Shown here in pieces: positions 49,833 through 64,000 of a DNA stretch of 64,000 nt (position 1 is the stretch's first letter; every line of letters starts with the position of its first letter). The stretch is taken from NCBI GenBank assembly GCA_000004985.1, contig GG738881.1. One strand, written 5' to 3'. A program made the translations under genes and the position numbers. Source of the stretch: Naegleria gruberi (Eukaryota). The notes beneath the pieces were generated by a model that made no database searches, was not told where the DNA came from, and saw only the letters and a list, made by a program, of their open reading frames with translations.

Positions 49833-51263
49833 ATGTCTAACCAATTCAAGAAGAATAACAATAATACCAACAACAATTCTGATACAAACCAACCAATCAG
49901 ATTGAGCAATATTTTAGATCTGCGAGGTGTTAACGATACATTGCCAGACAATTACATCCAACCTTCTAACCGAAGTGGAAATCAACAAAATAATAACAAC
50001 AATACACCAATGGTAAGCCTGGATAGCATATTGGGTATACGAAATTCATCAACCCTATCTGATAATCCAAATCTCTATCAAGGTCATATTAACTTCCATC
50101 ACAGTGTACATCATGATGGCCATCATGTAATAGACCATGTTGATCCCGATCTCCACCAACAAGAACAACAAAGATTAAGAATGTTTAACTCTGCTGGAGG
50201 TGGTGGAGCCAGTAATGGATTGCCTTCAATACCAAACCTTCCACAAAATATGAGTTCAATTCTTAACACCAATGAATCGTCCAACAATAATAATAATAAT
50301 AATTCGAACATTAGAAATACCAGTGCAGATCATCCAAATAACTATAATTCATATCAACAATCCTCCAATTCTATGCAAAGTTATACTAATAATAATAATA
50401 ACACTAGCAGTAATAGCTACTTTAACAATAATTCAAATAACTATATGCAACAACAGTCCTATACTAATAATAACAATAATAATAATAACAACAGTAATAA
50501 TAACAACTACTTTGATAACACAAGCCAATATTCCAATAACCAAAACAGTAATAACTATAACAACTTTAACAGCAATGGTTTTAATGCATTTACAAATAAT
50601 AATAATAATGGCAATGGTAACTTTTACGAAAACAATAATAATAATAACAATAACAATAATAACAGAAATAATAACAATGGTGGAGGTCAAGATGACTATT
50701 CTCAAGATGTTATTGTTTTGGTTGTTGAACAACAAAAGAGAATTTATCAATTAGAAGAAGAATTGCAACGAGCTCAGGATTATATTAACAAACTTCAAGA
50801 GTATGTCACTTATCTTGAATCTGAAAAAGAAAAGAATTCCAAGAAACAAAGTAGATACTGGACTCAAGAAGAACACAAGTTATTCTTAGAAGGTATTGAA
50901 AAGTATGGCAAGAAGGATGTTAAAGCTATTGCTAATTTTGTTGGAACCAGAAATGCTACCCAAGTAAGGACACACGCTCAAAAATACTATGCCAAGATTG
51001 ATAGGGAACAAAAGAAACACAGAGAAAAGAAATTGCAAGAAGCAAAGAAAAGAGTTAGTGATAAGCAAGAAAAGAAAAAGTCGAAACGAAAGAAGAAGAA
51101 ATATGATGACGATGAAGATAGTTTATCTAATGCAGATTCCTCAAATCAAGACTTTATGGGCAGTAATTCTTCGAGTTTGAGCGACGTAGAACCAAAAGAT
51201 GATGTAGAACCAATTCTTGACTCGACACCACACCAACAATTGACTGAAACCACCCTTACATAA
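49833..51263 (+). CDS. Myb-like (SHAQKYF-class) DNA-binding protein with a very N/Q-rich N-terminal region.
   Basis: 476-aa ORF. Single Myb/SANT repeat WTQEEHKLFLEGIEKYGKKDVKAIANFVGTRNATQVRTHAQKYYAKI (the SHAQKY[FY] motif). The N-terminal 270 aa are poly-N/poly-Q. Basic K-rich region after the Myb domain. Confidence 0.8.
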   Translation: MSNQFKKNNNNTNNNSDTNQPIRLSNILDLRGVNDTLPDNYIQPSNRSGNQQNNNNNTPMVSLDSILGIRNSSTLSDNPNLYQGHINFHHSVHHDGHHVIDHVDPDLHQQEQQRLRMFNSAGGGGASNGLPSIPNLPQNMSSILNTNESSNNNNNNNSNIRNTSADHPNNYNSYQQSSNSMQSYTNNNNNTSSNSYFNNNSNNYMQQQSYTNNNNNNNNNSNNNNYFDNTSQYSNNQNSNNYNNFNSNGFNAFTNNNNNGNGNFYENNNNNNNNNNNRNNNNGGGQDDYSQDVIVLVVEQQKRIYQLEEELQRAQDYINKLQEYVTYLESEKEKNSKKQSRYWTQEEHKLFLEGIEKYGKKDVKAIANFVGTRNATQVRTHAQKYYAKIDREQKKHREKKLQEAKKRVSDKQEKKKSKRKKKKYDDDEDSLSNADSSNQDFMGSNSSSLSDVEPKDDVEPILDSTPHQQLTETTLT

Positions 51264-51569
51264 TTGACCTTAAATGTTTCCCAAGAATATTTGGAAACAT
51301 TGGCACTGAGCTGTTCTCTTTTGTTTTGTGTGTGAAAATATGTTGCTTTCTTAAACAACAGAAAATAAACAAATCTTGAAAATGTTATTTGCTAATAATT
51401 ATTGGTATTGACTTTTTAATTGGTCACCACTTGAAGATTGTTATCATCATCATAAAATATTTGCAACAACAGGATGGAAAATTTCAGTGATAAGAGAACA
51501 GCCAAGATTCTCTTGTTGTTGGAATTTTATTGTGCTTTAAAAAAAAATTTCTCTCAATAGCAGTGAAAG

Positions 51570-52636
51570 ATGTCGTCTTCACCTTCATCATCGTCATCAA
51601 ATGAAGAGTTTTCATCTTTTAGAAAAGTGCTGATTTCCATAGCTAGTTATAATGTTGAAATTGGTTATAGTATTTGTGGAGGTGTAAGTGGTACTGTGAG
51701 TAGAACAGTGGCTGCTCCATTTGAGAGACTTAAAATTCTCTTCCAAGTACAAGATCTTTCCGTACAAAAGCCAACAGGAAAAGATGTTAAATATAATGGT
51801 ATAATAAGAAGTTTAATTAAAATCGGAAAGGAAGAAGGTATTTCGGGATATTTCAAAGGAAATGGTAGTAATGTTGTTCGTATCGTTCCATACACCGCTG
51901 TGCAATTTGTTTCATATGAAAAGTATAAAGAATGGATGATGAATATGAATCCAGATGGCCGATTAACAACCTGGCAAAGATTAAATTGTGGTGGTTTGGC
52001 TGGTATGACTTCAGTTATCGTCTCCTATCCTTTGGATGTTGTTAGATGTAGATTGAGTGCACAATATGAACCTAAAATTTATCATGGTATTAATCATGCT
52101 CTTAAACTTATTTATCAAACAGAGGGAATTAAAGGATTATATAGAGGAATTGTTCCAACATTGCTAGGTATTGCACCTTATGTTGCTCTCAATTTTACAA
52201 CTTATGAACATTTGAAAGTTAAGAGTCTTGAATATTTAGGATCGGATAATTTAGGAGTTGTTACAAAATTGGTTTTGGGTGCTGTTAGTGGTACTTTTGC
52301 TCAAACTGTCAGTAAGTAATTAATTCAAGTATTATTATTACAATATTATTAATTACAATTTTATTAATTTAATACTTATTAATAATATTAGCCTATCCAT
52401 TTGATGTCGTTAGAAGAAGAATGCAAATGGTTGGTATGAGTGGAGCTGAAGAGCTGCCAAAGACAATGCCTAGTGCATTCCGTCAAGTTTATCAAAAATA
52501 TGGTTTCACTGGATTCTACAAGGGTCTCCTTTCAAATTATATGAAAGTTATACCTGTAGTTTCAATTAACTTTGTTGTTTATGAATATATGAAGATTTTC
52601 CTTGGTTTGGCTAAGAGTGGAAGTGGTGAAGTTTAA
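51570..52636 (+). CDS. Mitochondrial carrier family (SLC25) protein, CoA/ADP-carrier-like (SLC25A42/A16/Leu5-type). Two exons.
   Basis: Three carrier repeats: PFERLKILFQVQ, YPLDVVRCRLS, and (after intron ~52317..52391) YPFDVVRRRMQM. The P-x-[DE]-x-[LIV]-[KR] signatures follow odd-numbered TM helices. Stop 52634-36. Confidence 0.85.
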
Positions 52637-52706
52637 ATGGGAATGATAATAATAGGTGTTTAGTTTGGAGATACGAGTAGTTCTGTAAAAAAAAATTGTA
52701 TTGAAA

Positions 52707-54002
52707 TTATTGTTTCTTCTTCTTTTTCTTTGTAGATTCTTCACTTTTCTCTTTCTTTCTCTTCTTTTTGACAGCGGTAGCTGCTGGTTCTTCAACAACA
52801 GGTACTGGCTCAGTTTCACCATATTCTGGTAGAACTGGTCTGCCATAGAGAGACATGTATTTGTCAAAGAGTGGTTTGAGACCTTCAAATGCTTCATGTA
52901 CTTTTCTGGTTGGCATTAAGGATGCAATTCCAACACCAAGCGTTTCAGCCACAGCATAGTGGTACTCGTAGTCATCATAATCTGAAATTAAAAAGCTTCT
53001 ATTATATGCTTTTCCTCTCTTGAGTTCTCCAACAATAAATGAATCAAATTTGGAGATACTCTCGTCAATTGGGGCCATAATTTCTTCATCCACTGTAAAG
53101 ACAGCCGGCGTGGAAGCTAATCTCATTTCTTCTTGATCTTTTCTTAATTTTTCATTTAGCTGAGCTTCTCTTCTTAGCTTTTCCTTTTCTTCTTTTTGCT
53201 TTTGTTTGATTTTTTGCTGCTCCTCTTCTTCTCTCTTCTTTTTAATTTGTTCAATTTTTTTTAATTGTTCTCTTAGTTCATTTTCTTTCTTTTCCACTTC
53301 AGATGATCGTGAAAAAAGAGCTTCCAAATTTTGTTTTCTCCTCACTTCATAATCGTAATCATAATCTACACTTAATATTGGATGTGTCATTAACTTCTCT
53401 TTTGGAATACCCTTTGCTCTTTGTTTTAATATTGCTCGTGAGATGTCATAATATCTCTTCTTTAAATCTTCCACTGAACGTTTAATTGCAGATTCCTTGC
53501 TTTTCAATTCACTTGAACAAAACCTGTCATGTACAACAATAAAACGTAAATCAAATGTTTTACAAAGTGAAAATAATAAATCAGTTTCTTCTCTTGTCCA
53601 ATCACTTTTTTCATCCATAGGTTCTATTATATTTTTATAATCATCATCCGAATATTGAAAAACTCTAGCCTTTTTGTTTAAAACTTCAAAAGGATAATTC
53701 AACTCCACAGGTTCATCGTCATCATCATCATCAACTCTAACCCAATGATAAAACACAGCCCCATCATCCCTAGCATTATTTATAAAAGGTTTCCATCTCC
53801 ATTTATCTGTTGTTTGTACAATCTTTCTCTTTTGTGTTGATCGGAGTGGTGTTTCCGATATCCTAGTGGCTGTTGTTGGGCTTTTAAATGGTGTTCCTTC
53901 TTTTAAAGTTTTGGCTGTACTCTTTGGTGGAGTTTGAAGAATTTGATCAAGTGCTGATTTTTTGGAGTGTTGAACACCCAACAAATCGGCATAATCACTC
54001 AT
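52707..54002 (-). CDS. DMAP1: DMAP1/SWC4-family protein (SANT domain subunit of NuA4/SWR1-type chromatin complexes).
   Basis: 431-aa ORF collinear with human DMAP1 as recalled: ..KWRWKPFINNARDDGAVFYHWVRVDD.., the SANT-like WTREETDLLFSLCKTFDLRFIVVHDRF..RSVEDLKKRYYDISRAIL, a charged coiled-coil middle, and a K-rich C-terminus. Confidence 0.85.
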   Translation of the reverse strand: MSDYADLLGVQHSKKSALDQILQTPPKSTAKTLKEGTPFKSPTTATRISETPLRSTQKRKIVQTTDKWRWKPFINNARDDGAVFYHWVRVDDDDDDEPVELNYPFEVLNKKARVFQYSDDDYKNIIEPMDEKSDWTREETDLLFSLCKTFDLRFIVVHDRFCSSELKSKESAIKRSVEDLKKRYYDISRAILKQRAKGIPKEKLMTHPILSVDYDYDYEVRRKQNLEALFSRSSEVEKKENELREQLKKIEQIKKKREEEEQQKIKQKQKEEKEKLRREAQLNEKLRKDQEEMRLASTPAVFTVDEEIMAPIDESISKFDSFIVGELKRGKAYNRSFLISDYDDYEYHYAVAETLGVGIASLMPTRKVHEAFEGLKPLFDKYMSLYGRPVLPEYGETEPVPVVEEPAATAVKKKRKKEKSEESTKKKKKKQ

Positions 54003-54270
54003 TTTTTTTTAAATATTTAATAATTTATAATAATAATATTTTTAAATAGTTAAATATTAGTTTGTATATTAATTGAAGCAATAGAAATTGTAATCTTTAG
54101 TTCATTGATAATCTGTGAGAATTTCAATAATAATAATATTAATATTTAAAATTGTTTTTTAATAAAGGTTACAAAAAAAGGAAGGAGAACGGAGTTGGGG
54201 GAAAAAACAGCTGATTGATCATTCTGATCATCAACACACGTGATCACAATAAGTATCATCAGGGATTAAT

Positions 54271-54669
54271 TTACCCAAGAGTATTTTGACCACTGTATGT
54301 TACATAAAGGAAACCATCTTCATCCCTATATCTCTCATAAACATTACTCATTACATCAGTTTGTAATAATAAAACATCACGGCCCACAAAGAAGAAGAGA
54401 GATGTCGTTTCATTCAATGATAATCTATTTCTAACAACCATTACGAATTGACTCACAGTTAAATCAGCAGGTACCAGATACTTATTCTTATCAATGGATG
54501 GCAAATCCTTTTCAACTGATGATTTTTCGCAAATCACAGGAATACGATCACTGTATTTCTCTCTAACCTTCTTTGATTCTTCCATTCTTTCTGAGAGAGT
54601 TTTTTGTTCTTTAAAGATTTTACCAGTCTTGGTGATTGGTTTAACAGAGGGTATTAAATTTGGATCCAT
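54271..54669 (-). CDS. atg8: Autophagy-related ubiquitin-like protein ATG8 (LC3/GABARAP family), ending directly at the conjugation Gly.
   Basis: 132 aa: ..FKEQKTLSERMEESKKVREKYSDRIPVICEKSSVEKDLPSIDKNKYLVPADLTVSQFVMVVRNRLSLNETTSLFFFV..DEDGFLYVTYSGQNTLG*. Near-collinear with yeast/human ATG8 (..KYPDRIPVIVEK..DKKKYLVPADLTVGQF..DEDGFLY.TYSGENTFG). Confidence 0.9.
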   Translation of the reverse strand: MDPNLIPSVKPITKTGKIFKEQKTLSERMEESKKVREKYSDRIPVICEKSSVEKDLPSIDKNKYLVPADLTVSQFVMVVRNRLSLNETTSLFFFVGRDVLLLQTDVMSNVYERYRDEDGFLYVTYSGQNTLG

Positions 54670-54885
54670 TGTTGTTGTAGAGTTATTGTTGTTGTTGGCT
54701 ATTTTTTTGTGTAAATTTGCTCTCTAATTGGAACTATTAATAATTTCGTTAATGTTCTAATTGGAAGTCGTAATGGAACATGATTGGAAATAGACAGGTT
54801 CTTAAGGACGATACATACCATTAACGAATCTTTGGCCGATGTTAGAAGATGTCCTTAATAAAGAGTGAATCAGTGGTTGTTTTAT

Positions 54886-56293
54886 TTACATCATCATTGG
54901 GGATTTGATTTCTTCTGGAGATTCTTGATTGAGAATTTCCTCAATATCAGCAGTTCCAGATTGGTTAAGTTGATTGGCAAGATTATGGTCTAGTTGGATG
55001 GTTGTAGAGATTTTCTCATCGAGGAAGAGAATGGTTTGATTCTCTTGAAGGAAGAGATTGAGAATGATTGGAAGATAGAGTGATATCATTTTGATATGTT
55101 TAGATTCATGATTTTCACTTTCTTGATAGCTGAGGGATTTTGTGAGAATATCAAATTTGAAAATATACTAACCTTAAATTACAAATAAATGTATTTACAG
55201 TATGAACATCGGTGATTTGATTATAAGGTACAAATAATTCAGTCTTATTCTTGTTAGAAGGGTCAATAATAGAGAATCCTGTTTCGTCCAAAATCATATA
55301 CTTTTTGTACCATCTATCATCCTTAATTAAAACTTCCAATGATGAGTGGTCCATATAATTAGGTGTTGAGTCTTTCTTTTCTGTGGTAGTGAACATATTT
55401 ACAAGTGGACCTACACTATAAGAATAGAGTCCAGAGAGATAATAATTGAATGAGGAGCTAGTAGCATTAGAGGCATTATTAGTTGTTGGAATAATAGATT
55501 GTGAGGATGTTTGAGATTGTTGTTGAGCTTCAACCTCTGCAATTGATTTCTTTGAGGTAAAATTTGAAGGTGTCAAACTCTTAATATATGAGAATGGATC
55601 CAATTTTTTACCTCTTGCTGAGTAAATGAGTCGCCCATCAGATTCTGTCTCATCTTCACTGTCCTCTCCATATTGAATTTCCTTCAAGAATCCATTCTCA
55701 TCAACTTTTAATTCAATAGCACGTTCCTTTCTCTTTTTTGAAACGGATCTTGGTTTTGATCCATACATTCTCAATTGATCCAAAACATGATTAATAACCG
55801 AACAAGCATTTGTGATACTCTTCAATCCAATAAAATAGTATGAAGTCAAATTAGTTTGAATCAATAAAACTGATTTAAATAAATAAGTAGTCTTTGATGC
55901 AAGTTGTATATCTTGAAATGGAATAATAATACAATTAGCATGACTTTTCAATTCCTTTTGTTCATTGGGAAGTTGTGTATATACATCTTCCTCTTCAATA
56001 TAACCTCCACCACTATTGCCCATCATCATGGATGAATTAATTCCTGGAACACCACTACCAACAGAAGAAGAATTATCAGCACCTCCCTTACCTCCATATT
56101 CAAATAATACAAATCTCGGAGTGATATACAAAGTACCACCTGATGGAGCCACTGTATAATTCCAATACTGACAAGGAAACTTTTTAATTAATAAAAAGGC
56201 ATGTCTATCATCGGCAATATTCACCACATTATTCATCGTTGCGTGTGTGGATGAGTTTGGAGAACCAACTCGGAACGATGATAAGTGTTGCAT
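54886..56293 (-). CDS. Hypothetical protein, probably two exons (56293..55151 plus ~55090..54886). Possible GRAM/PH-like N-terminal region.
   Basis: 380-aa ORF with N-terminal ..AFLLIKKFPCQYWNYTVAPSGGTLYITPRFVLFE, a G/S/N-rich middle, and a C-terminal ..RWYKKYMILDETGFSIIDPSNKNKTELFVPYNQITDVH. The downstream small ORF is in the same orientation. Confidence 0.35.
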
Positions 56294-56507
56294 TTTTTTA
56301 CTAGTTTTTGAAATTTGAATTAATTGGAGCTATTTTTACAAATTGATGAACGTGATGATTTATCATGTTGTTTTGAGATATTTGACCAATTTAGAGACAT
56401 TTTCAAAACTATTTGGTAATATTTGACCAATCAGATATTTGATTGGATAGCTGTGTGCATTGTAATATTGTTGTAAATTGTATTGTGTAATGGTTGACTA
56501 AAATCTT

Positions 56508-57135
56508 TTACATTAGTTGACAATCCCTTGTCTTTGAGAATAATTCTCTTTGGTGATTGTAATAAACAAGTGTTTTGGCAAAAATCTCTGCCAAGTATTT
56601 TGTGCTTCCCTCTCCAGTCATTGCTGAGCTTTCAACATAGGTACAACAACCTGTTGAACGAGCCATCAATTCTCCTTCACTGAAACTGATTGGTGTTGTA
56701 AAGTGTTGAAACTTTAACTCTTTTAGAACTTTTGAACTATTCCTCAAATCAGCCTGGCATCCTATTAAAATGATTGGACTGTCTGGGTTGTAATGTCTAA
56801 TTTCTGGAATCCATTTGTGTTGAATATTCTCAAAACTTATACTGGAAACAGTACTGAAGCAAGCACAAAATAAATCAGTTTCAGGATAACTAAGCGGTTT
56901 TATCCTCTCATAACTATTCCAGTATAATTAAATAGAGAGCATAACCTTTCAGTACTTACTCTTCTTGACCTTCGGTATCCCACAAATAAAAATTACAAAT
57001 CTCCTTATTATTATAATGGTATGAAACACACGAGGTATTATATGAATGATAGTAGAATTGAGGTGCATAACCGAAACCCAAATAGTGGATTAACCAGGTT
57101 TTTCCAATACGTCCATCTCCAGTAAATATCAGACT
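56508..57135 (-). CDS. Atypical Rho/Rac-family small GTPase with a CAAX box. At least 2 exons here, plus an upstream exon whose splice phase I could not resolve.
   Basis: Exon (57135..~56952) LIFTGDGRIGKTWLIHYLGFGYAPQFYYHSYNTSCVSYHYNNKEICNFYLWDTEGQE|GTAAGT. Exon (~56929..56508) (D)YERIKPLSYPETDLFCACFSTVSSISFENIQHKWIPEIRHYNPDSPIILIGCQADLR...YVESSAMTGEGSTKYLAEIF...KTRDCQLM*. The G-boxes sit in Rho positions, and CQLM is a prenylation CAAX. Confidence 0.7.
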
Positions 57136-57165
57136 GAAATTAAATTCAAAGGAGATTGATGATGG

Positions 57166-57447
57166 TCAACTTACAATCTTTTTATGATTCGACTGTTGTC
57201 CTTCTGTGCAAACTTCCTTTCTCAAATCCACACCTTTCAAAAGTTCCAAATCATTCTCCTCAATCGTTGATTTAATTTCCTCAAAATGCTGATAAAGTTC
57301 CTCCTTAATGGAATGTTTCTTGGCCACTACTTTACTTCGTTCTTTTAAAGTTTCCTCAATTTCATGTTGAACTTTTTCCTTTAATTCCAAGAATGACTTT
57401 CTCTTATCCATTTCCAAAAATACGTACAGATCATACAATTTATTCAT
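57166..57447 (-). CDS. Short coiled-coil ORF immediately upstream of the Rho GTPase. It is either its 5' exon or exons, or a separate small gene.
   Basis: ORF MNKLYDLYVFLEMDKRKSFLELKEKVQHEIEETLKERSKVVAKKHSIKEELYQHFEEIKSTIEENDLELLKG... ends next to a GTAAGT donor (57171) that feeds a tttcag acceptor at 57136. The phase of this splice does not fit the ORF frame directly, so the joining is unresolved. Confidence 0.25.
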   Translation of the reverse strand: MNKLYDLYVFLEMDKRKSFLELKEKVQHEIEETLKERSKVVAKKHSIKEELYQHFEEIKSTIEENDLELLKGVDLRKEVCTEGQQSNHKKIVS

Positions 57448-57638
57448 TCTTTCGAATATTATTTATGAAACTCAAAATTCCTCAATTAAAGAGAAATGGA
57501 GGTGTTTCAAGAAGAAGGAATGGAACTGGTGCATAAAAAGAACCCTAATATTATTTTGTATTGGTTCTGGTTGTATGGTTATCCGTTTAGAATAAACTTA
57601 AAAACAGATTGTGAAAAGTGATTTCGAATAAATAAAAA

Positions 57639-59129
57639 ATGAACAGCATAACCAAGGCAAGACCTTGGAGACTTGCTGCAGCAATTTTAGGTATCATCTT
57701 TGTGGGTGTTTTACTATTCGAAATGATGCAGATTCGTGTAAAACCAACCTCGAAACCACCAACAATAATAGAAGTAGATCCAGTAACTACTACTACTTTG
57801 ACTAAACCTAAACAACCAGAAAAGGAATTTACAATCTGGTCAACAAGTTATCGTATGTATTATTAGTTTCGTCTAGTTTCGAATAATAATAATTTTCGAT
57901 TAGATATTTCACCGATCGAATGCTTGAAACATTTTCTTGAAAACGACTTCCGAAAGAAAACAGGAAGAAAGGTAAAAATCATTAACAAATCACTAAGTGG
58001 TCACTGTCACATCCCAAAGACATGTGCCAAAGATTTAAAAGTTTTGAATAGTGGAAATGGAGGATTTACTCCATGCAGAGAAAAAATTGGTGAAAAATTA
58101 TATGAAGCATACAAACAAGACGATGAATTCGCTTCAGTTGACTTGGTAATGTGTGATCACAATATTGCCATGTGTGAATTATATATGGCATTTGACAAGC
58201 CAATGGTTCTTCAAGCAACAACTCGTTATGAATTGTGGAGACATAGTCCAAGTGAATGGCAAAATTTAAATCAAAATCTTGAAAAAATTGTTGCTAAAAA
58301 GCACAATTCAATTGTGGCAAATAATTTATTCGATGCAAATTATGTTCAATATTTCACAGGACTTAAAATTCCAGTTTTTGATTCATATTGTGCATATACT
58401 GCTGATGAGGGAACTTATAATCCAACTAGAAGTGAATTCTTGATTGGACCATCTAGATCTTCTGCAAGTGGAGCTTTCTTTGAAACAATTAATAGATTAA
58501 TTTCTCAAGATGGAAATAAGATTCAAATTAAGGGAATTCGTCAATTGTACAGCCATTTCAAATATTCTGACTTGGCCGCTCATCCAGCCATTATTATTAT
58601 TCCATATCAAGTATCAGTTATGAGCTTTTTCGAATATTATAGAATGAATATTCCAATGTATGCTCCATCTATTGAATTATTAACTAAATGGCATGTTGAC
58701 ACTCGTATTTTGAGTGAAAGAACATGGGGTTTGGTTGGTTCTGGAGGTAATGTTGGAGCTAAAGGATCTCCTTCAGAAATGAAGAAACACCCAAATGCCA
58801 ATCTTCCAAACTTTGATCCAAACAATGATGTTGATTATACTAGTGTCTTATTTTGGAATCAATACTCTGATTTCTATCAATGGCCTAATATTATTACATT
58901 CAGTTCATGGGAAGATTTATTTGCCAAATTGAAGGGAACTACACTTGACGATTATAAGGAAATCAGCAAAAAGATGGCCATGTATAATGCTGAAGTTAGT
59001 GATTCCCTTGTCAGAAAGTGGCTTGATGTTATTGAAAGAGCTGAAAGTAAGAAGGACAAAAATCAAAAATCAACATTGACTTTTGAACAAGCAATGAAAA
59101 ACCATTGGAATATTGATATGAAATGTTAA
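57639..59129 (+). CDS. Type-II (N-terminal signal-anchor) membrane protein with a ~400-aa lumenal/extracellular domain of unknown family (Golgi glycosyltransferase-like architecture). Two exons.
   Basis: Exon 1 MNSITKARPWRLAAAILGIIFVGVLLFEMM.. (one TM) then a T/P-rich stem, ending ..STSY C|GTATGT. Intron to cgattag at ~57903. Exon 2 continues H-ISPIECLKHFLENDF... with conserved Cys/His/Trp-rich sequence and no internal TM. Stop 59127-29. Confidence 0.55.
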
Positions 59130-59196
59130 TCTAGATTTTAGTATAAATATTTAATATTTAAAATTATTATATCACGATTGTGTGTCTTATGTAAAC

Positions 59197-61192
59197 TTAA
59201 TTACAGCATACACTAACACAACAAACTGTGACATCATCTGATTTTCCATGGCGTTTAAATTCTCCTGTCATTTTGCTTAAACCCATGGAGAACGGTGTAT
59301 GGATTGGTAAATTCTGAGAGCTATATCTCTTGACAGCTTCCTGAACTAATTTTTTAGCAATACTATGACAACTAGTTCCAGCTTTCATTATCTTTAAGAT
59401 ATCTTGGTCAAATAAATTATCAAAAAGTCCATCTGTTGCAAGGATGATAAAATCACCTTCTCGTAATGTGCAACAATTAATTTGTAAATCAGCACTACTT
59501 GGATCGTCCTTTATCAGCTCATCACTGTCCAATTCTGGCGGTATGATGGACAATTGATAAGGTGCATTAAAGTAGTGTTGTTGTTCCTTAGTTCTGTAAA
59601 TAACCTTATTCTTCTGTTTGTTTACGACTGCAAAGCCTGAATCTCCTAGGTTGGCATATGATAATTGGTACAAGTTTTGAGGAAGAGGTTTAAGGAAGAG
59701 AACGCAAGCAGTTGTTCCTCCAGCCTTCACTTGATTCAGTTCAGTCATTAATCTAAAAGCTCTTTCTAACAGTATTTTTGGATGAATAACTTGAGGAAGT
59801 TCCAATGCTTTCATTACAGTTGATTCATATTCTTTAGGTATTGTGTAATTATTCTCTGAAATGATTTGATTGATTTGGTCTGCACAGAGTAGCATTTTAC
59901 AATTCCACATTAATTGACGTGATACTAAGGATGGATCAATTTCGAATGCCATCCAACCGCCTACTCCATCTGCAATGCCAAAACTATAAACTTCATGTTT
60001 TGTACTATAACAACAATAGTATGCATCTTCACCTGTTGGGTGAGTAGATTCATCACACATTGGTTTTTGTTTGCTGTAAACTGAAACTTTGAGAGCTTTT
60101 TCACTTGTAGCTGCTCCACCATTTGGATCATTTGGATTTGCAGCGTTATTTGCCTTCTTAATTCTATATTGTAAATTCAATTTGTTTTTCGGAATTGGTG
60201 GTGGTGAGAGGAGAGGAACTTTGGTGGGAGAGATTGAATCATATTGTTTCATTGGTCCGGTTGTTGACTGTACATCGAAAGAGTTCTATTATTTCAAATA
60301 TGATATTCCACCAACATTACCAAAATATCAAATAATTGTTTGGATAGGATTTTCAAATATTTAGCAATGAGACAACAGTACTTACCTTTGATAAGGTCGC
60401 ATGTGGTGTAATGTATGAGGCCTCAACATCAATCTCTTCTTCATCTTCAACATAATGTGAGGCTGTTATTGGAGTTAGGGGTTGCTTATTTGAAAGGGTT
60501 AGAGGTGCTATTGGACGAGAAGATGGTGATAGAGATTGAAAATCTCTTCGCTCACCATCTTTCTTCCTTCCCAATGGTGTAAGAGGTTGCTTATTGGAGA
60601 GAGAACCAAGAGTGCCCGAATTTCCAGTTGCATTGACACTGAAAGAATTCCTCATTGGTGCATGATGGTCTCCAACATTTCCTGCTGATGAAATTGATCT
60701 CTTACTATTACCTCCTCCTGTAGATGAGAAGAAATGTATGAGAGGGGATGAGTTAGGTTTTGGTGAGGTAACTTTTGGATCCAGTGCTCCTGAAGAATTT
60801 GTATTTCCACTACCTGTTGTTCCAATACTACTACTAAGAGAATTTAATTTGTTTTTACCTCCTGGCTTGGCAGAGGATAATTGTTTTGATCGAGAAGAAC
60901 CCGATGGTGTACTCGAAGAAACAATAGCAACAATTCCACTACCACCCGAAGATGGCGAACCACTATTTCCAAATCCATTTACACTACCACCAACAACAAT
61001 ACCACTACTTCCCACACCTCCACCAAGAGGTCGTGCAGAGAAGGAAGGAGATGAAGATCGAATGCCTGCTGTAGTTCCCTTCTTCATTTTTACTTGTTGG
61101 AGAAAATTTTGAGAAGTTGTGTTGTTGCTATTGCTTGGCGTTGCTGGTCTGCCAGTTATTTCAATACCAGGGAATGGTTTTAAATTGTACAT
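59197..61192 (-). CDS. PP2C-family protein phosphatase of the PTC7/PPTC7 type with an S/G/T-rich N-terminal extension. Two exons.
   Basis: Exon 1 61192..~60374 (S/G-rich) ends ..ATLSK|GTAAGT. Acceptor ..aataatag at ~60286. Exon 2 has ..SFGIADGVGGW.. (PTC7-type metal-binding motif), ..ILATDGLFDNLFDQD.., and ..HGKSDDVTVCCVSV... Confidence 0.8.
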
Positions 61193-61869
61193 GATTTTGG
61201 CGCGAAAAAAATAGGAACAGTTGTTTTTTGACTCTTATGCTGCCTTATTAATGAGGTGCTCTTGTACGGCAATTAACTTGGACAGTGTGCTCTGTCCTTG
61301 AAGACTTGATATGAGTTTGAGGAAAGGAATCGGAGAGTGAGAGGATTGCTTTTCAATAATAATGGGTCGAGTGTTTTATCTTGTTGCTCCTCTGTTATGA
61401 TAATGATGGCCTGAGACTGAGGTTCTTTGATTTACCCAATGAAGTGCTAAATGATGTGTTCTTATTCTTTTTGGAGATGTAAATGAAGATGTCTGGGCGG
61501 ATTTTCAGAAAATTATGATAATGATGGCAAAACACAAGCATTATCAAGTTCAAATATTCAACAAGTTGTTTATCAAGTGACTGGCGATTGAGAGAGATTG
61601 AAACAGCAACTCGATTGGTGCTCTTTTTTTAGAGAAGTTGATTGTCTAAAAAGATAGTACTAGAAATTAATACGAAAATGAAGAGATTGTGATCTTAATT
61701 GGAAGTTTTCAGTGAGGAGAAAACAATATTCGAAATTAAAGAGTATTCAAAGAGATGTAAACTGGATCTGTCAAGATTTCATTACCAGTATCAAGGTTTA
61801 AGTACTGAAACAAGTAAGCAAACAACCAACTGCTACTGCCACCAACACACCTAAGAATGAATAACGATT

Positions 61870-62961
61870 TTGCCTCTGTGCACAGAAACTATGGGAAACG
61901 AAGATGTTATTTTTGGTCTTACATGTTGCAAGTCAACGTCAGCCATCATTACAAAAAAAACGTTAGAAAAAAAAATGGCAACTCAAAATATTATTCATCA
62001 CCCTCTGTATCCTTCGGTGCTTGCCAGTCAAAGTGTTACCATTGCGGATGGTCATCGTCACTATAAAAACATTTCCGCACAACCAACAACAGTGACAAGT
62101 GAAGACATTAAGAGAAAGTTACATGAAATTGGTGACAGTGAAATTCCGAATCAAACACAAACTTCAATTGATGTCTCTGTACAAAATGATAACGGTTCTA
62201 TCATCAATCAATTATTTAGTAGTTATTTACAACAAACTTCATATCCTACAATTATTGAAAGTGAGCTTCCTACACTTTCAGAACCACAACCATCACAAGC
62301 CGATGATGTGTTAATTGGCATGACAGCAATGCACACTCTTGCAAAGATTGAACTACAAAGCTTGTATAATTTATGTGAGGATTATATTGACAGAATGCAT
62401 CACACTTTACATATTGAAAAACAAAACGCCAAACAAAATGCCAAACAAAAAGTACAATATCCTTTAGTTTATACCGGATCCAGTATTGCTGGTTTTAACA
62501 GTCAAGGAGGTAACTTGGCATTTGGTCAATCAAGTGGAGACGATCAAACAGATCAAATGGATCAAAATGATAATGGTTCTGATGGATCTGGACTTGATGA
62601 TGATTACTCATTATCTGATATGAAGAAACCAGAAGATGTTGTTAAGGAATTGAAGAAACGTTATTCTGGAGAAGTTTTAAATCTTGCTAAAAAGAAGAAG
62701 AATTTCTGTAAATCATCAACAGACGTATTAAATGTTTGGTTTTTCCAACATTTACATGATCCATATCCAAGTGATGATGAAAAGAGAGTTCTTTCACAAC
62801 AAACTGGACTCTCACTTTCTCAAGTTAACAATTGGTTTGGTAACAAGAGAATGAGATATAAGCGTAAAATGTTGGAACAAAATAGAAAGAATGGAAAATC
62901 TCAAGAGGACGAATCTCAACAATTACAATTCCATAATGATCAAGATTTTAATTTTAATTAA
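61870..62961 (+). CDS. TALE-class homeobox transcription factor, copy 2 (paralog of the 25920..27206 gene). The true start is probably the internal Met (MATQNIIHH, ~61975).
   Basis: C-terminal homeodomain ..FCKSSTDVLNVWFFQHLHDPYPSDDEKRVLSQQTGLSLSQVNNWFGNKRMRYKRKML is very close to copy 1 (..VLNDWFFANLQNPYPSEDEKKGLVDQTTLSLLQINNWFSNKRVRYKRKMQ). Acidic/N-rich middle region. No intron at the PYP position, unlike copy 1. Confidence 0.8.
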   Translation: MPLCTETMGNEDVIFGLTCCKSTSAIITKKTLEKKMATQNIIHHPLYPSVLASQSVTIADGHRHYKNISAQPTTVTSEDIKRKLHEIGDSEIPNQTQTSIDVSVQNDNGSIINQLFSSYLQQTSYPTIIESELPTLSEPQPSQADDVLIGMTAMHTLAKIELQSLYNLCEDYIDRMHHTLHIEKQNAKQNAKQKVQYPLVYTGSSIAGFNSQGGNLAFGQSSGDDQTDQMDQNDNGSDGSGLDDDYSLSDMKKPEDVVKELKKRYSGEVLNLAKKKKNFCKSSTDVLNVWFFQHLHDPYPSDDEKRVLSQQTGLSLSQVNNWFGNKRMRYKRKMLEQNRKNGKSQEDESQQLQFHNDQDFNFN

Positions 62962-62986
62962 GTTTTTGTAAATTTGTAAATAAAAA

Positions 62987-64000
62987 CTACCAAGCAAAGT
63001 GAACTAGATAACCACAACCAATACCAATTGCTGATCCAAACAACAATCCAGTATTAAGGAAAAAGTTCATCAGGTAGGCTGCCTTTTCTTGTTCTCCAGT
63101 TTTAACAACTGATGGACCACTTGCCATACCAATTGAACAGCAATAACCATTGGTCAAACCAAAGAGAGCTAAAATAATACTAAACCAAATTGGTTGAGTA
63201 ATATAAAGTGGATTAACACAGAAAATAATCACTGGAACAAATCCCAATCTAAGTAAAATTAAAATCCACAATTGTTTGTGAGTAAGCAGAATTGTTCTCT
63301 TCCAGTTTGGTAAAGCTCTTCCAATACAATCAAAAATATTGAAAATTGAAAGAGTAATAATTGGATTCCAAGACATGTGAATATCCTTTCCCTCGTTAAT
63401 GTATCTGATATCAGTAATCAAACCAGGTGTCAGTGAAAATGTAGTAAGGAAGGTAACAAAAATACCAAGACCAGGAGACCACAACTTTCTCATGAGAGAC
63501 AACCAAGTAATACCAAAATCATTCATATTCACACTAATATCTGGTACTTCTGCCTTTTCAGTAATCAAGCTTTGAGTATCAAGATCTTCAGTAATATCAT
63601 CACCATCTCCATTTAAATTTCCAATAGAGGCAATACTCTGTGGAGCATCTTCATTGGATCCTGAGAAATTATCTTCTTCCTTCNNNNNNNNNNNNNNNNN
63701 NNNNNNNNNNNNNNNNNNNNNNNNNNNNNNNNNNNNNNNNNNNNNNNNNNNNNNNNNNNNNNNNNNNNNNNNNNNNNNNNNNNNNNNNNNNNNNNNNNNN
63801 NNNNNNNATTCAAACAAATGACACAAGTCAACATGAATATCTTATCATAGGTTTGTTCATTATTATTAAATCCATATTGATTGACTAAAATCACATTAAT
63901 AAACAATGTGACCAATACACAAACAAAATTCAATGCATATCCTAGGAAAATAAATTGTTCTACTGTAAATGTTTGTGCTTTTAAAGTATGTACAGATTTC
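62987..64000 (-). CDS. Equilibrative nucleoside transporter (ENT/SLC29 family), 3' part. The gene crosses the N-gap and runs off the window end.
   Basis: C-terminal half ..LSIFNIFDCIGRALPNWKRTILL...LLRLGFVPVIIFCVNPLY...FGLTNGYCCSIGMASGPSVVKTGEQEKAAYLMNFFLNTGLLFGSAIGIG.. matches the ENT1 C-terminal TM9-11 region as recalled (FNIFDWLGRSL...NGYLASLCMCFGPKKV). Upstream TM-like ORF 63840..64000 is in the same orientation. Confidence 0.7.
63684..63807. other. Assembly gap (124 N).
   Basis: Run of n characters in the supplied sequence. Confidence 1.

What the first reader, a model, noticed from the sequence alone, without database searches (positions are those of the whole stretch)
56508..57447. 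Rho-family GTPase with non-canonical catalytic and guanine-binding residues and an unresolved coiled-coil 5' region
G1 reads GDGRIGKT, which is Arg at the position of Rac Ala13 (Ras Gly13). G3 reads WDTEGQEE, which is Glu at Ala59. G4 reads CQAD instead of T/N-K-x-D. Comparable changes in Rnd and RhoBTB proteins abolish GTP hydrolysis, and loss of the G4 Lys should weaken guanine binding. This predicts a constitutively GTP-bound protein or a pseudo-GTPase. It still carries a CAAX box (CQLM). Directly upstream is a 90-aa coiled-coil ORF (57166..57447) whose terminal GTAAGT donor pairs with the tttcag acceptor preceding the G1 exon. I could not make the phases agree, so at least one more small intron or an alternative start is needed.
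Basis: partly seen in the sequence, partly recalled or inferred. Interest (0 to 1): 0.55.

Follow-up and report, generated by a model that had tools for sequence, protein, structure and literature searches.

The report
Broken atypical Rho GTPase gene copy
This is a Rac-like small-GTPase gene of the amoeba Naegleria gruberi that already had unusual nucleotide-pocket residues and, in this genome, has also lost its 5' end and a splice acceptor, so it is most likely a recently inactivated gene copy rather than a new kind of molecular switch.

Summary
The window is Naegleria gruberi, not a dictyostelid. The locus is annotated as XP_002674984.1 'small GTPase'.

Four homologous loci settle the gene structure. 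The family has an F-box-like N-terminus, a helical region of about 90 aa, intron 1, a Rac-like domain split by intron 2, and a CAAX box. In every homologue the intron-1 acceptor AG lies directly before ATA-(T/A)TT, which encodes I-F/I-x-GDG.

A metagenome contig (L002) covers the same locus at 98.3% identity. It carries an intact gene with the acceptor TCAG|ATATTT. The window has TCTG there (T at 57131). It also lacks about 280 nt holding the 5' leader and the first ~76 codons.

That explains the phase mismatch: no further intron is needed, because the acceptor is gone. From the GTAAGT donor, the only in-frame AG acceptors skip G1 and switch I. The database model uses one of them.

Glu59 and Gln116 are shared with L002 and are derived relative to three paralogues. 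They arose under purifying selection (omega about 0.3). Arg13 is specific to this genome. Gly12 and Gln61 are intact. All family members lack switch-I Thr35.

Best reading: a recently inactivated copy of an already atypical Rho paralogue.

The parts
57453..57458 (-). Scar of a deletion of about 280 nt. The lost sequence held the 5' leader and the first ~76 codons, including the F-box-like N-terminus.
   Evidence: L002 positions ~365-647 have no counterpart in the window, and the flanks on both sides are collinear. Paralogues L001, L003 and L004 all keep this N-terminal region, so its presence is ancestral.
57175..57447 (-). Remnant of exon 1. It encodes 91 codons of the helical ('coiled-coil') region and starts at what is an internal Met in the intact gene.
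   Evidence: 92-93% identical to P0154 (L002) and 69% identical to P0063. dN/dS against the paralogues is 0.3-0.5. AlphaFold2 models the equivalent part of P0153 as a long helix.
57130..57174 (-). Intron 1 as defined by homology (45 nt). The GTAAGT donor is at 57174..57169. An in-frame TGA lies at 57168..57166. A cryptic CAG lies at 57136..57134. The former acceptor now reads CTG at 57132..57130 (T at 57131 where L002 has A).
   Evidence: The intron position is conserved in L001 (ACGCAG|ATATTT), L002 (TCAG|ATATTT), L003 (TTAG|ATAATT) and L004 (AAAG|ATAATT). It is also the position used in the N. gruberi paralogue model P0153 (HKKI|IFNGDG). The window also lacks 2 nt (TG) inside the intron.
56960..57129 (-). 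Exon 2: strand beta-1, G1 GDGRIGKT (57120..57097), a divergent switch I, and G3 DTEGQE-.
56914..56959 (-). Intron 2 (46 nt, GTAAGT...AATAG, phase 2).
   Evidence: Splicing restores QEDYERIKPLSYP. The intron sits at the same position in all four homologues.
56508..56913 (-). Exon 3: switch II remainder, G4 CQAD (56759..56748), Rho insert, G5 SAM, CAAX CQLM (56522..56511) and the TAA stop.
57001..57174 (-). The 174-nt 'intron' used by the database model XP_002674984.1 (P0001). It removes G1 and switch I.
   Evidence: P0001 reads ...HKKI|ICNFYLWDTEGQED. From donor 57174, the AGs at 57005/57004 and 57002/57001 are the only in-frame canonical acceptors.

Best explanation
The locus is a Naegleria gruberi Rac-like Rho-family gene. 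It belongs to a small subfamily found only in N. gruberi-like sequences.

The subfamily architecture is:
- an F-box-like N-terminus;
- a helical region of about 90 aa;
- a conserved phase-0 intron;
- a Rho domain with a Rho insert;
- a second, phase-2 intron inside switch II;
- a C[Q/E]LM CAAX box.

Shown here:
1. After duplication from the paralogue represented by P0153 and L001, this copy acquired Glu59 (G3), Gln116 (G4), Phe32, Asn38, Glu65, Ile67 and Lys68. It did so while still under purifying selection (omega about 0.3).
2. In the sequenced genome the copy carries three further lesions that are absent from a 98%-identical strain:
   - a ~280-nt deletion of the 5' leader and the F-box-like coding region;
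   - a 2-nt deletion inside intron 1;
   - an A-to-T change that destroys the intron-1 acceptor.
3. It also carries Ser13-to-Arg in the P-loop.
4. From the GTAAGT donor, the two nearest AGs shift the frame. Intron retention runs into a TGA. The only in-frame AGs delete G1 and switch I.

Inferred:
- This allele no longer makes a nucleotide-binding GTPase. It is a recently inactivated paralogue: a pseudogene or a null allele.
- Before inactivation, and in strains with the intact allele, the protein was probably not a classical switch. It lacks Thr35. Gln116 should weaken guanine binding and speed nucleotide exchange. Glu59 should disturb switch II. It was therefore probably a membrane-anchored (predicted farnesylated) scaffold-like atypical Rho.
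For: - Organism and annotation.
- Same locus in L002: 98.3% identity over 3078 aligned nt, collinear across both neighbouring genes.
- Intact L002 gene of 359 aa, spliced HKKI|IFTGDGSIGKT.
- Intron-1 position conserved in L001, L003 and L004, and in the P0153 model.
- Enumeration of acceptors from donor 57174.
- Polarised substitutions: the paralogues and Rac1 share Ala59, Lys116, Asp65, Leu67, Arg68, Tyr32 and Asp38. The window and L002 share the derived states.
- Omega on the stem of this paralogue is about 0.32, against 0.35 on the sister branch.
- Window versus L002: 14 nonsynonymous and 3 synonymous differences, omega about 1.08. This is unlikely under omega 0.31 (p=0.03).
- Mismatch density is 2.5% in the gene, against 0.4% and 0.9% in the flanks.
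- A Naegleria pangenome study places most of its 25 Rho-family GTPases in the accessory genome (PMC9928731). This fits rapid gain and loss of such paralogues.
Against: - No transcript data were available, so I could not check how or whether the pre-mRNA is spliced.
- The ORF from G1 to the CAAX box is still fully open (193 codons). Any inactivation must therefore be recent, or the domain is still used.
- The recent omega of about 1 rests on only 17 substitutions. About half of the polarised changes fall on the L002 lineage, which is intact. Fast evolution of a still-functional gene cannot be excluded.
- The acceptor change is a single base. It could be heterozygous, or a rare assembly error.
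- A TG 3' splice site next to an AG cannot be excluded.
Confidence: 0.62

Rival explanations
1. The gene is still functional in this genome. Either the spliceosome uses the TG at 57131/57130 as a 3' splice site, or the reference base is an error or only one of two alleles. The product would be a 282-aa helical-region-plus-Rho protein lacking the F-box-like end. It would behave as an atypical GTPase: nucleotide-free, fast-exchanging or GTP-locked.
For: - The reading frame from G1 to the CAAX box is intact, and Gly12, Gln61, Lys16/Thr17, Asp57 and Asp118 are kept.
- The paralogue was under purifying selection (omega about 0.3) while it acquired Glu59 and Gln116.
- An ATG (57447) remains at the head of the surviving exon 1, and the upstream intergenic region is conserved with L002.
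Against: - All four homologues use AG at this site.
- Three independent lesions specific to this genome hit the same gene.
- Recent omega is about 1.
- No evidence for TG acceptors in Naegleria was found.
Confidence: 0.2
2. The database model is correct. The GTAAGT donor is joined to the AG at 57002/57001, giving a 239-aa protein that joins the helical region to a Rho domain lacking the P-loop and switch I. This would be a non-nucleotide-binding remnant.
For: These are the only canonical in-frame acceptors. This is the model deposited as XP_002674984.1.
Against: - The acceptor has a purine-rich context (TAATAAGGAG|), and the resulting intron would be 174 nt. The family's verified introns are 36-47 nt.
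- No homologue is spliced this way.
- Removing strand beta-1, the P-loop, helix alpha-1 and switch I would probably not leave a foldable G domain (inference).
- The sister paralogue model P0153 also appears to be mis-spliced at intron 2. These automatic models are therefore not reliable here.
Confidence: 0.08
3. An additional small intron or an alternative upstream start restores the frame. A related alternative is that the in-frame TGA (57168..57166) is read through or decoded as selenocysteine, with no intron 1 at all.
For: - The helical ORF and the G1 exon lie in the same genomic frame, separated by a single TGA.
- In L001 the corresponding codon is TGT, and the frame stays open through the intron.
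Against: - L002 has the same TGA, and L003 has a TGA after GTAAGTCGA at this position. Both are intact genes when spliced.
- The intron position is conserved in five loci, with lengths of 36-47 nt that are not all multiples of 3.
- The only in-frame GT donor upstream is a poor GTCGAA at 57193 (reading).
- There is no SECIS-like RNA in the 3' region, even at E<=10.
- There is no in-frame ATG between the TGA and G1.
Confidence: 0.03

Closest known systems
Human Rac1 and the classical Rac/Cdc42/Rho GTPases
   Same: - Rac1 is the best solved relative (E=2.6e-41).
- Same G-domain length, with a Rho insert present.
- G1 GxxxxGKT, Gly12, Asp57, Gly60, Gln61, Asp118 and the G5 SA motif are present, as is a C-terminal CAAX box.
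   Different: - Arg13, Glu59 and Gln116.
- Cys instead of Thr/Asn at the first G4 position.
- No Thr35, and a divergent effector loop.
- CAAX ending in Met, which predicts farnesylation rather than geranylgeranylation by the textbook rule.
- A long N-terminal extension.
- Gene disrupted in this genome.
N. gruberi 'rho family GTPase' P0153 (354 aa, on another scaffold) and its environmental counterpart L001
   Same: - Sister paralogue: 76-78% amino-acid identity, dS about 0.32.
- Same two introns, same helical region, same CQLM box, same missing Thr35 and same Cys at G4.
   Different: - The sister keeps the F-box-like N-terminus and the AG acceptor.
- It keeps GDGSVGKT, Ala59 and Lys116 (CKVD).
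Rnd1-3 and RhoH (GTPase-deficient atypical Rho proteins)
   Same: Rho-family proteins that do not cycle like classical switches. Rnd proteins are farnesylated (my own knowledge).
   Different: A recent review attributes their defect to the absence of Gly at the Gly12-equivalent position (PMC13236570). This gene keeps both Gly12 and Gln61. Its departures are at positions 13, 35, 59 and 116.
RhoBTB (a Rho domain fused to BTB domains that assemble cullin-3 ubiquitin ligases; PMC4931677 abstract)
   Same: If the N-terminal motif of the subfamily is a true F-box, the intact family members would be a parallel case: an atypical Rho domain fused to a cullin-ligase adaptor module.
   Different: - There is no BTB domain.
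- The extension is N-terminal.
- The F-box assignment is below threshold.
- The window copy has lost that region altogether.
Ras Lys117 and Ala59 variants
   Same: - Gln116 here sits at the equivalent of Ras Lys117. That residue is well conserved, and its modification promotes GEF-independent exchange (PMC13236570).
- Ras A59 and K117 substitutions are known to activate or speed cycling (my own knowledge).
   Different: Those are somatic or engineered changes in otherwise canonical switches. Here the changes are fixed in a paralogue that also lacks Thr35.

Membership tests
Ras superfamily / Rho family | Ras-type G-domain fold recognised by profile | tested here: met
   Pfam PF00071 E=7.6e-25, 87.8 bits against a cut-off of 21.6. 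Rac1 structures score E=2.6e-41.
Ras superfamily / Rho family | Rho insert between beta-5 and alpha-4 | tested here: met
   DLRNSSKVLKELKFQHFTTPISF aligns with Rac1 [22 protein letters not shown] with only a 1-residue length difference.
Ras superfamily / Rho family | G1 P-loop GxxxxGK[ST] | tested here: met
   GDGRIGKT at 57120..57097. Arg occupies position 13, where the paralogues and L002 have Ser, Ala or Gly.
Ras superfamily / Rho family | Switch-I Thr35 (Mg2+ and gamma-phosphate ligand) | tested here: not met
   HMMER and MAFFT both align Rac1 Thr35 to His. An ungapped alignment places Ser there instead. L001, L003 and L004 also lack Thr.
Ras superfamily / Rho family | G3 DxxG followed by catalytic Gln61 | tested here: met
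   DTEGQ: Asp57, Gly60 and Gln61 are present. Position 59 is Glu instead of Ala.
Ras superfamily / Rho family | G4 [NT]KxD | tested here: not met
   CQAD at 56759..56748: the Lys is replaced by Gln and the Asp is kept. The paralogues have CK[VI]D.
Ras superfamily / Rho family | C-terminal CAAX prenylation box | tested here: met
   CQLM followed by a stop at 56522..56508. The same or a similar box is present in P0153, L002, L003 and L004. Whether it is actually prenylated cannot be tested here.
Rnd/RhoH-type GTPase-deficient Rho proteins | Non-Gly at the Gly12 equivalent (and/or loss of Gln61) | tested here: not met
   Gly12 and Gln61 are retained. The criterion is taken from PMC13236570.
RhoBTB | Tandem BTB domains C-terminal to the Rho domain | tested here: not met
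   The protein ends at the CAAX box. No BTB match was found in Pfam.
F-box proteins (relevant to the subfamily's N-terminus) | F-box domain recognised above threshold | tested here: inconclusive
   - PF00646 matches P0153 and P0063 at E=0.12 and 0.039 (12.7 and 14.3 bits against a cut-off of 20.5). It gives no hit for P0154, P0220 or P0271.
- hhalign against seven F-boxes written from memory gives P=0.0015 and probability 16%, in the expected register.
- A PDB profile search finds nothing.
- The AlphaFold2 model of the N-terminus has low confidence.
- The region is deleted in the window.
Pseudogene / inactivated paralogue | Disabling lesions relative to intact orthologues | tested here: met
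   A ~280-nt 5' deletion and the change of the intron-1 acceptor from AG to TG, relative to L002 and three paralogues.
Pseudogene / inactivated paralogue | Relaxed selection (omega near 1) | tested here: inconclusive
   Window versus L002 gives omega about 1.08, but from only 14 nonsynonymous and 3 synonymous changes spread over both lineages.
Pseudogene / inactivated paralogue | No correctly spliced transcript or protein | not testable with these tools
   No transcript data were reachable. The accession numbers are not mentioned in the searchable literature.
Selenoprotein (in-frame TGA) | SECIS element in the 3' UTR | tested here: not met
   Rfam scan of 55800..57700 at E<=10 found no SECIS family.

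The most novel reading that the evidence does not exclude
The intact relatives of this gene (L002, P0153/L001, L003, L004) may form an undescribed subfamily of probably farnesylated Rho GTPases restricted to N. gruberi-like organisms. All of them lack the switch-I threonine. All carry an N-terminal F-box-like motif followed by a long helix. On this reading they would be membrane-anchored SCF (cullin-1) substrate adaptors built on a non-switching Rho domain, an independent parallel to RhoBTB and cullin-3. The window copy would be a member caught just after inactivation.
Probability: 0.2. Interest if true: 0.55.

Novelty: new member of a known kind. Interest (0 to 1): 0.25.

Why it matters
- For annotation: the deposited model XP_002674984.1 is an artefact that keeps the frame by skipping the P-loop. 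The locus should be flagged as disrupted. The sister model P0153 also seems to be mis-spliced at intron 2.
- For biology: the locus is a small, dated example of the gain and loss of Rho paralogues in Naegleria. It shows a paralogue that first lost canonical nucleotide-pocket residues under selection and was then broken.
- The broader subfamily (F-box-like motif, helix, Thr35-less Rho domain) could be worth a biochemical look. The window copy itself is not a new mechanism.

Tried and rejected
- **Alternative donors and acceptors for intron 1.** The only in-frame GT upstream is a weak GTCGAA at 57193. The AGs at 57135/57134 and 57118/57117 shift the frame. Rejected once the homologues fixed the acceptor position.
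- **Read-through or selenocysteine at the TGA.** L001 has TGT at this position, which at first suggested there was no intron. Rejected because L002 and L003 also have a stop there, because intron lengths differ (36-47 nt), and because no SECIS was found.
- **Paralogue inside the window.** None found (tblastn).
- **Exact-protein look-ups.** P0001 and P0153 are not on record. The DNA of the N. gruberi sister paralogue was therefore not available.
- **Spliced sequence for the exhaustive HMMER search.** P0001 was used instead, and that search found P0063.
- **JGI metagenome scans, by protein and by DNA pattern.** Nothing found.
- **F-box tests.** Pfam, a PDB profile search, hhalign and AlphaFold2 were all inconclusive. 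I did not run a fold search because the N-terminal model has low confidence.
- **Literature.** Nothing on the sample PRJEB11402 or on the protein accessions. A search for papers on TG 3' splice sites failed on syntax and was not repeated.
- **Excess of amino-acid changes on this paralogue's branch.** 23 versus 9 changes (p=0.013) looked like acceleration. The codon-level omega is the same on both branches (0.32 and 0.35), so I do not claim relaxed selection on the stem.
Full report
**What is in the sequence**

- an ATG at 57447 opening a 93-codon ORF rich in Glu and Lys, which ends at the TGA at 57168..57166;
- a GTAAGT at 57174;
- a tttCAG ending at 57134;
- a G1 motif GDGRIGKT (57120..57097);
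- WDTEGQE (56982..56962);
- a second GTAAGT...AATAG intron of 46 nt (56959..56914);
- CQAD (56759..56748);
- CQLM followed by a stop (56522..56508).

After intron 2 is removed, G3 reads WDTEGQED. The spliced G domain matches Pfam Ras at E=7.6e-25 and human Rac1 structures at E=2.6e-41. It aligns through the Rho insert. It is therefore a genuine Rac-like Rho-family sequence, not a chance ORF.

**Organism and annotation**

The nearest database protein is XP_002674984.1 / EFC42240.1, 'small GTPase [Naegleria gruberi]', 239 aa (P0001). The window is therefore Naegleria gruberi (Heterolobosea), not a dictyostelid.

That model joins the helical exon (...SNHKKI) to ICNFYLWDTEGQED. It uses an AG at 57002/57001 inside the G1 exon, so it deletes the P-loop and switch I. 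Enumerating all AG acceptors downstream of the 57174 donor gives the following:
- the two nearest AGs, at 57135/57134 and 57118/57117, shift the frame;
- only the AGs at 57005/57004 and 57002/57001 are in frame.

The deposited model is the only canonical way to keep a frame. That does not make it a credible protein.

**Homologues that fix the gene structure**

An exhaustive HMMER search with P0001 found P0063, which is 69% identical over the helical ORF. A profile search then found four more relatives:
- the N. gruberi paralogue P0153 ('rho family GTPase', 354 aa, on another scaffold);
- three ORFs, P0154, P0220 and P0271, from the same ENA metagenome as P0063 (ERZ929261).

The contigs that encode them are L001 to L004. 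I built complete or nearly complete gene models from them.

All of them share one architecture:
- an N-terminal motif of about 40 aa (LN.DE.GV.FSFLD..F......L.S.SFN.L);
- a helical region of about 90 aa;
- a phase-0 intron of 36-47 nt;
- an exon that begins ATA-(T/A)TT and encodes I-F/I-x-G-D-G;
- a phase-2 intron inside QE|D;
- a last exon that ends in C[Q/E]LM.

The acceptors are ACGCAG|ATATTT (L001), TTTCAGTCAG|ATATTT (L002), TTTCAGTTAG|ATAATT (L003) and AAAAAG|ATAATT (L004). The P0153 model is spliced the same way (HKKI|IFNGDGSVGKT). So the helical ORF belongs to the GTPase gene, and there is exactly one intron between them.

**Why the phases do not agree**

L002 is the same locus as the window. 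It aligns collinearly from 57796 to 54709 at 98.3% identity over 3078 nt. The aligned stretch includes the first exon of the divergent upstream gene and the downstream gene.

L002 encodes an intact 359-aa protein. Relative to it, and to the paralogues, the window has three lesions:
1. About 280 nt are missing (L002 ~365-647). They held the 5' leader and the first ~76 codons. What was an internal Met is left as the ATG at 57447.
2. Two nt (TG) are missing inside intron 1.
3. The sequence before ATATTT reads TCTG instead of TCAG. The acceptor AG is now TG, with T at 57131.

With the acceptor gone, the possible outcomes are:
- the cryptic CAG at -4 gives a frameshift;
- the next AG gives a frameshift and a stop;
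- intron retention runs into the TGA.

No extra intron or alternative start is needed to explain the finding. The reference allele is simply broken at this point.

Before I saw L002 I briefly considered read-through or selenocysteine at the TGA, because L001 has TGT there. I rejected the idea for three reasons. L002 and L003 also carry a stop in the intron. The intron lengths are not all multiples of three. No SECIS-like element is present.

**The non-canonical residues**

I aligned the window, L002, L001, L003, L004 and Rac1. The departures fall into three classes.

| Class | Features |
|---|---|
| Typical of the whole subfamily | Cys at the first G4 position (CKxD in the paralogues). No Thr at switch-I position 35 (His in the window by the HMMER and MAFFT alignments; Leu, Gly and probably Ala in the paralogues). 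CAAX ending in Met. |
| Derived in this paralogue, shared by the window and L002 | Ala59 to Glu, Lys116 to Gln, Tyr32 to Phe, Asp38 to Asn, Asp65 to Glu, Leu67 to Ile, Arg68 to Lys, Val14 to Ile. The other paralogues agree with Rac1 at every one of these positions. |
| Specific to this genome | Arg13 (CGT). L002 has Ser (AGT), L001 Ser, L003 Ala and L004 Gly. |

The second class is real biology rather than sequencing noise, because two independent sequences share it. Gly12 and Gln61 are unchanged. RhoBTB was not checked.

What can be said from established knowledge of the G domain is limited:
- The G4 Lys packs on the guanine and ribose. Its conservation and role in nucleotide exchange are noted for Ras K117 (PMC13236570). 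Gln116 should therefore weaken binding or speed exchange.
- A charged residue at position 59, next to Gly60 and Gln61, should disturb switch II.
- A domain without Thr35 cannot perform the canonical loaded-spring switch.

These three points are inferences. I did not test them.

**Selection**

Pairwise dN/dS between the window gene and the paralogues is 0.3-0.4.

I polarised the changes with L003 as outgroup. The stem leading to the window/L002 paralogue has 25 nonsynonymous and 19 synonymous changes (omega about 0.32). The sister branch has 19 and 13 (omega about 0.35). The paralogue was therefore under purifying selection while it acquired Glu59 and Gln116. This argues that the atypical protein was functional for most of its history.

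The excess of amino-acid changes on its branch (23 versus 9, p=0.013) is not matched by a higher omega. I do not read it as relaxation.

Since the split between the window and L002 there are 14 nonsynonymous and 3 synonymous differences. This gives omega about 1.08, which is unlikely under omega 0.31 (p=0.03). The gene has 2.5% mismatches, against 0.4% and 0.9% in the flanks. Polarised, five amino-acid changes fall on the window lineage, four on L002, and three are ambiguous. The counts are small. They suggest recent relaxation or very fast evolution of this paralogue in both strains.

[quoted passage not shown] High copy numbers of Rho GTPases in N. gruberi are also noted in PMC5499878. Turnover of such paralogues is therefore expected.

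**Best explanation and rivals**

I conclude that this locus is a recently inactivated copy of an already atypical Rho paralogue (confidence about 0.6).

- The anatomy is shown: the deletion, the lost acceptor and the polarity of the substitutions.
- The loss of function is inferred.

The main rival (about 0.2) is that the gene still works. That would require the TG to be used as an acceptor, or the reference base to be an error or only one of two alleles. The database model lacking the P-loop (about 0.08) and the extra-intron or read-through ideas (about 0.03) are unlikely, for the reasons above.

**The N-terminal motif of the family**

The motif resembles an F-box in the expected register, but the evidence is below threshold:
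- Pfam F-box scores E=0.04-0.12 for two members and gives nothing for three.
- hhalign against seven F-boxes written from memory gives P=0.0015 and probability 16%.
- A profile search of PDB sequences finds nothing.
- The AlphaFold2 model of P0153 has three short helices there, followed by a long helix. The pLDDT is only 47-64 at the N-terminus, so I did not run a fold search.

No member was found outside N. gruberi-like sequences. If the motif is a real F-box, the intact family would be a parallel to RhoBTB (PMC4931677). This is the most novel reading that remains open. It concerns the relatives, not the window copy, which has lost that region.

**Verdict**

- The finding is an ordinary, though instructive, case of a decaying atypical Rho paralogue, with a misleading database gene model.
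- Interest is low to moderate.

Noticed in passing
Related protein P0153 (N. gruberi 'rho family GTPase'), compared with L001:840-960: The deposited model of the sister paralogue reads WDTAGQEE|LRPLSYP and lacks DYDR. The homologous GTAAGT...TATAG intron in L001 restores the canonical QEDYDRLRPLSYP. Intron 2 of that model therefore looks mis-annotated.
   Followed up: partly
L004:1215-1262: The most distant family member has an extra intron inside G3 (DTAG|gtaagt...aatag|GQED). It also uses GTATGT rather than GTAAGT as its intron-1 donor, and it has Ile instead of Trp56.
   Followed up: no
window 56959..56914, and intron 2 of L001-L004: The first nine bases of intron 2 (GTAAGTACT) are identical in all five loci. 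The first 19 are identical between the window and the paralogue L001. That is more conserved than much of the coding sequence. It may reflect an extended 5' splice-site consensus or another constraint.
   Followed up: no
window 57134..57136; L002 and L003 intron 1: The window, L002 and L003 keep a TTTCAG 4 nt upstream of the functional acceptor position. In the intact genes it must be skipped to stay in frame, perhaps because it lies too close to the branch point. L001 and L004 lack it.
   Followed up: partly
window 57639..59129 (+): The divergently transcribed neighbour starts about 190 nt from the GTPase ATG. It has a short first ORF with a hydrophobic anchor-like segment (57639..57866) followed by a 401-aa ORF with no Pfam match. 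Its first exon is almost identical in L002 (1 mismatch in 261 nt).
   Followed up: partly
window 55151..56293 (-): The downstream neighbour is a 380-aa single-ORF protein with low-complexity Ser/Asn runs. Its only Pfam match is a sub-threshold GRAM hit (E=6.8e-4, 19.9 bits against a cut-off of 23.6). It is collinear with a 403-aa called gene in L002.
   Followed up: partly
window 49833..63826: The surrounding ORFs are ordinary eukaryotic genes. They include a Myb-domain protein (49833..51263), a SANT/DAMP1-like protein (52707..54002), a PP2C phosphatase (59197..60252), a TALE/KN homeobox protein (61870..62961) and a nucleoside transporter (62987..63826).
   Followed up: partly
L001:1-40: The 5' end of the L001 contig (CATACCACTAGACCATGGTCCC...) looked tRNA-like by eye. 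ARAGORN found no tRNA.
   Followed up: yes
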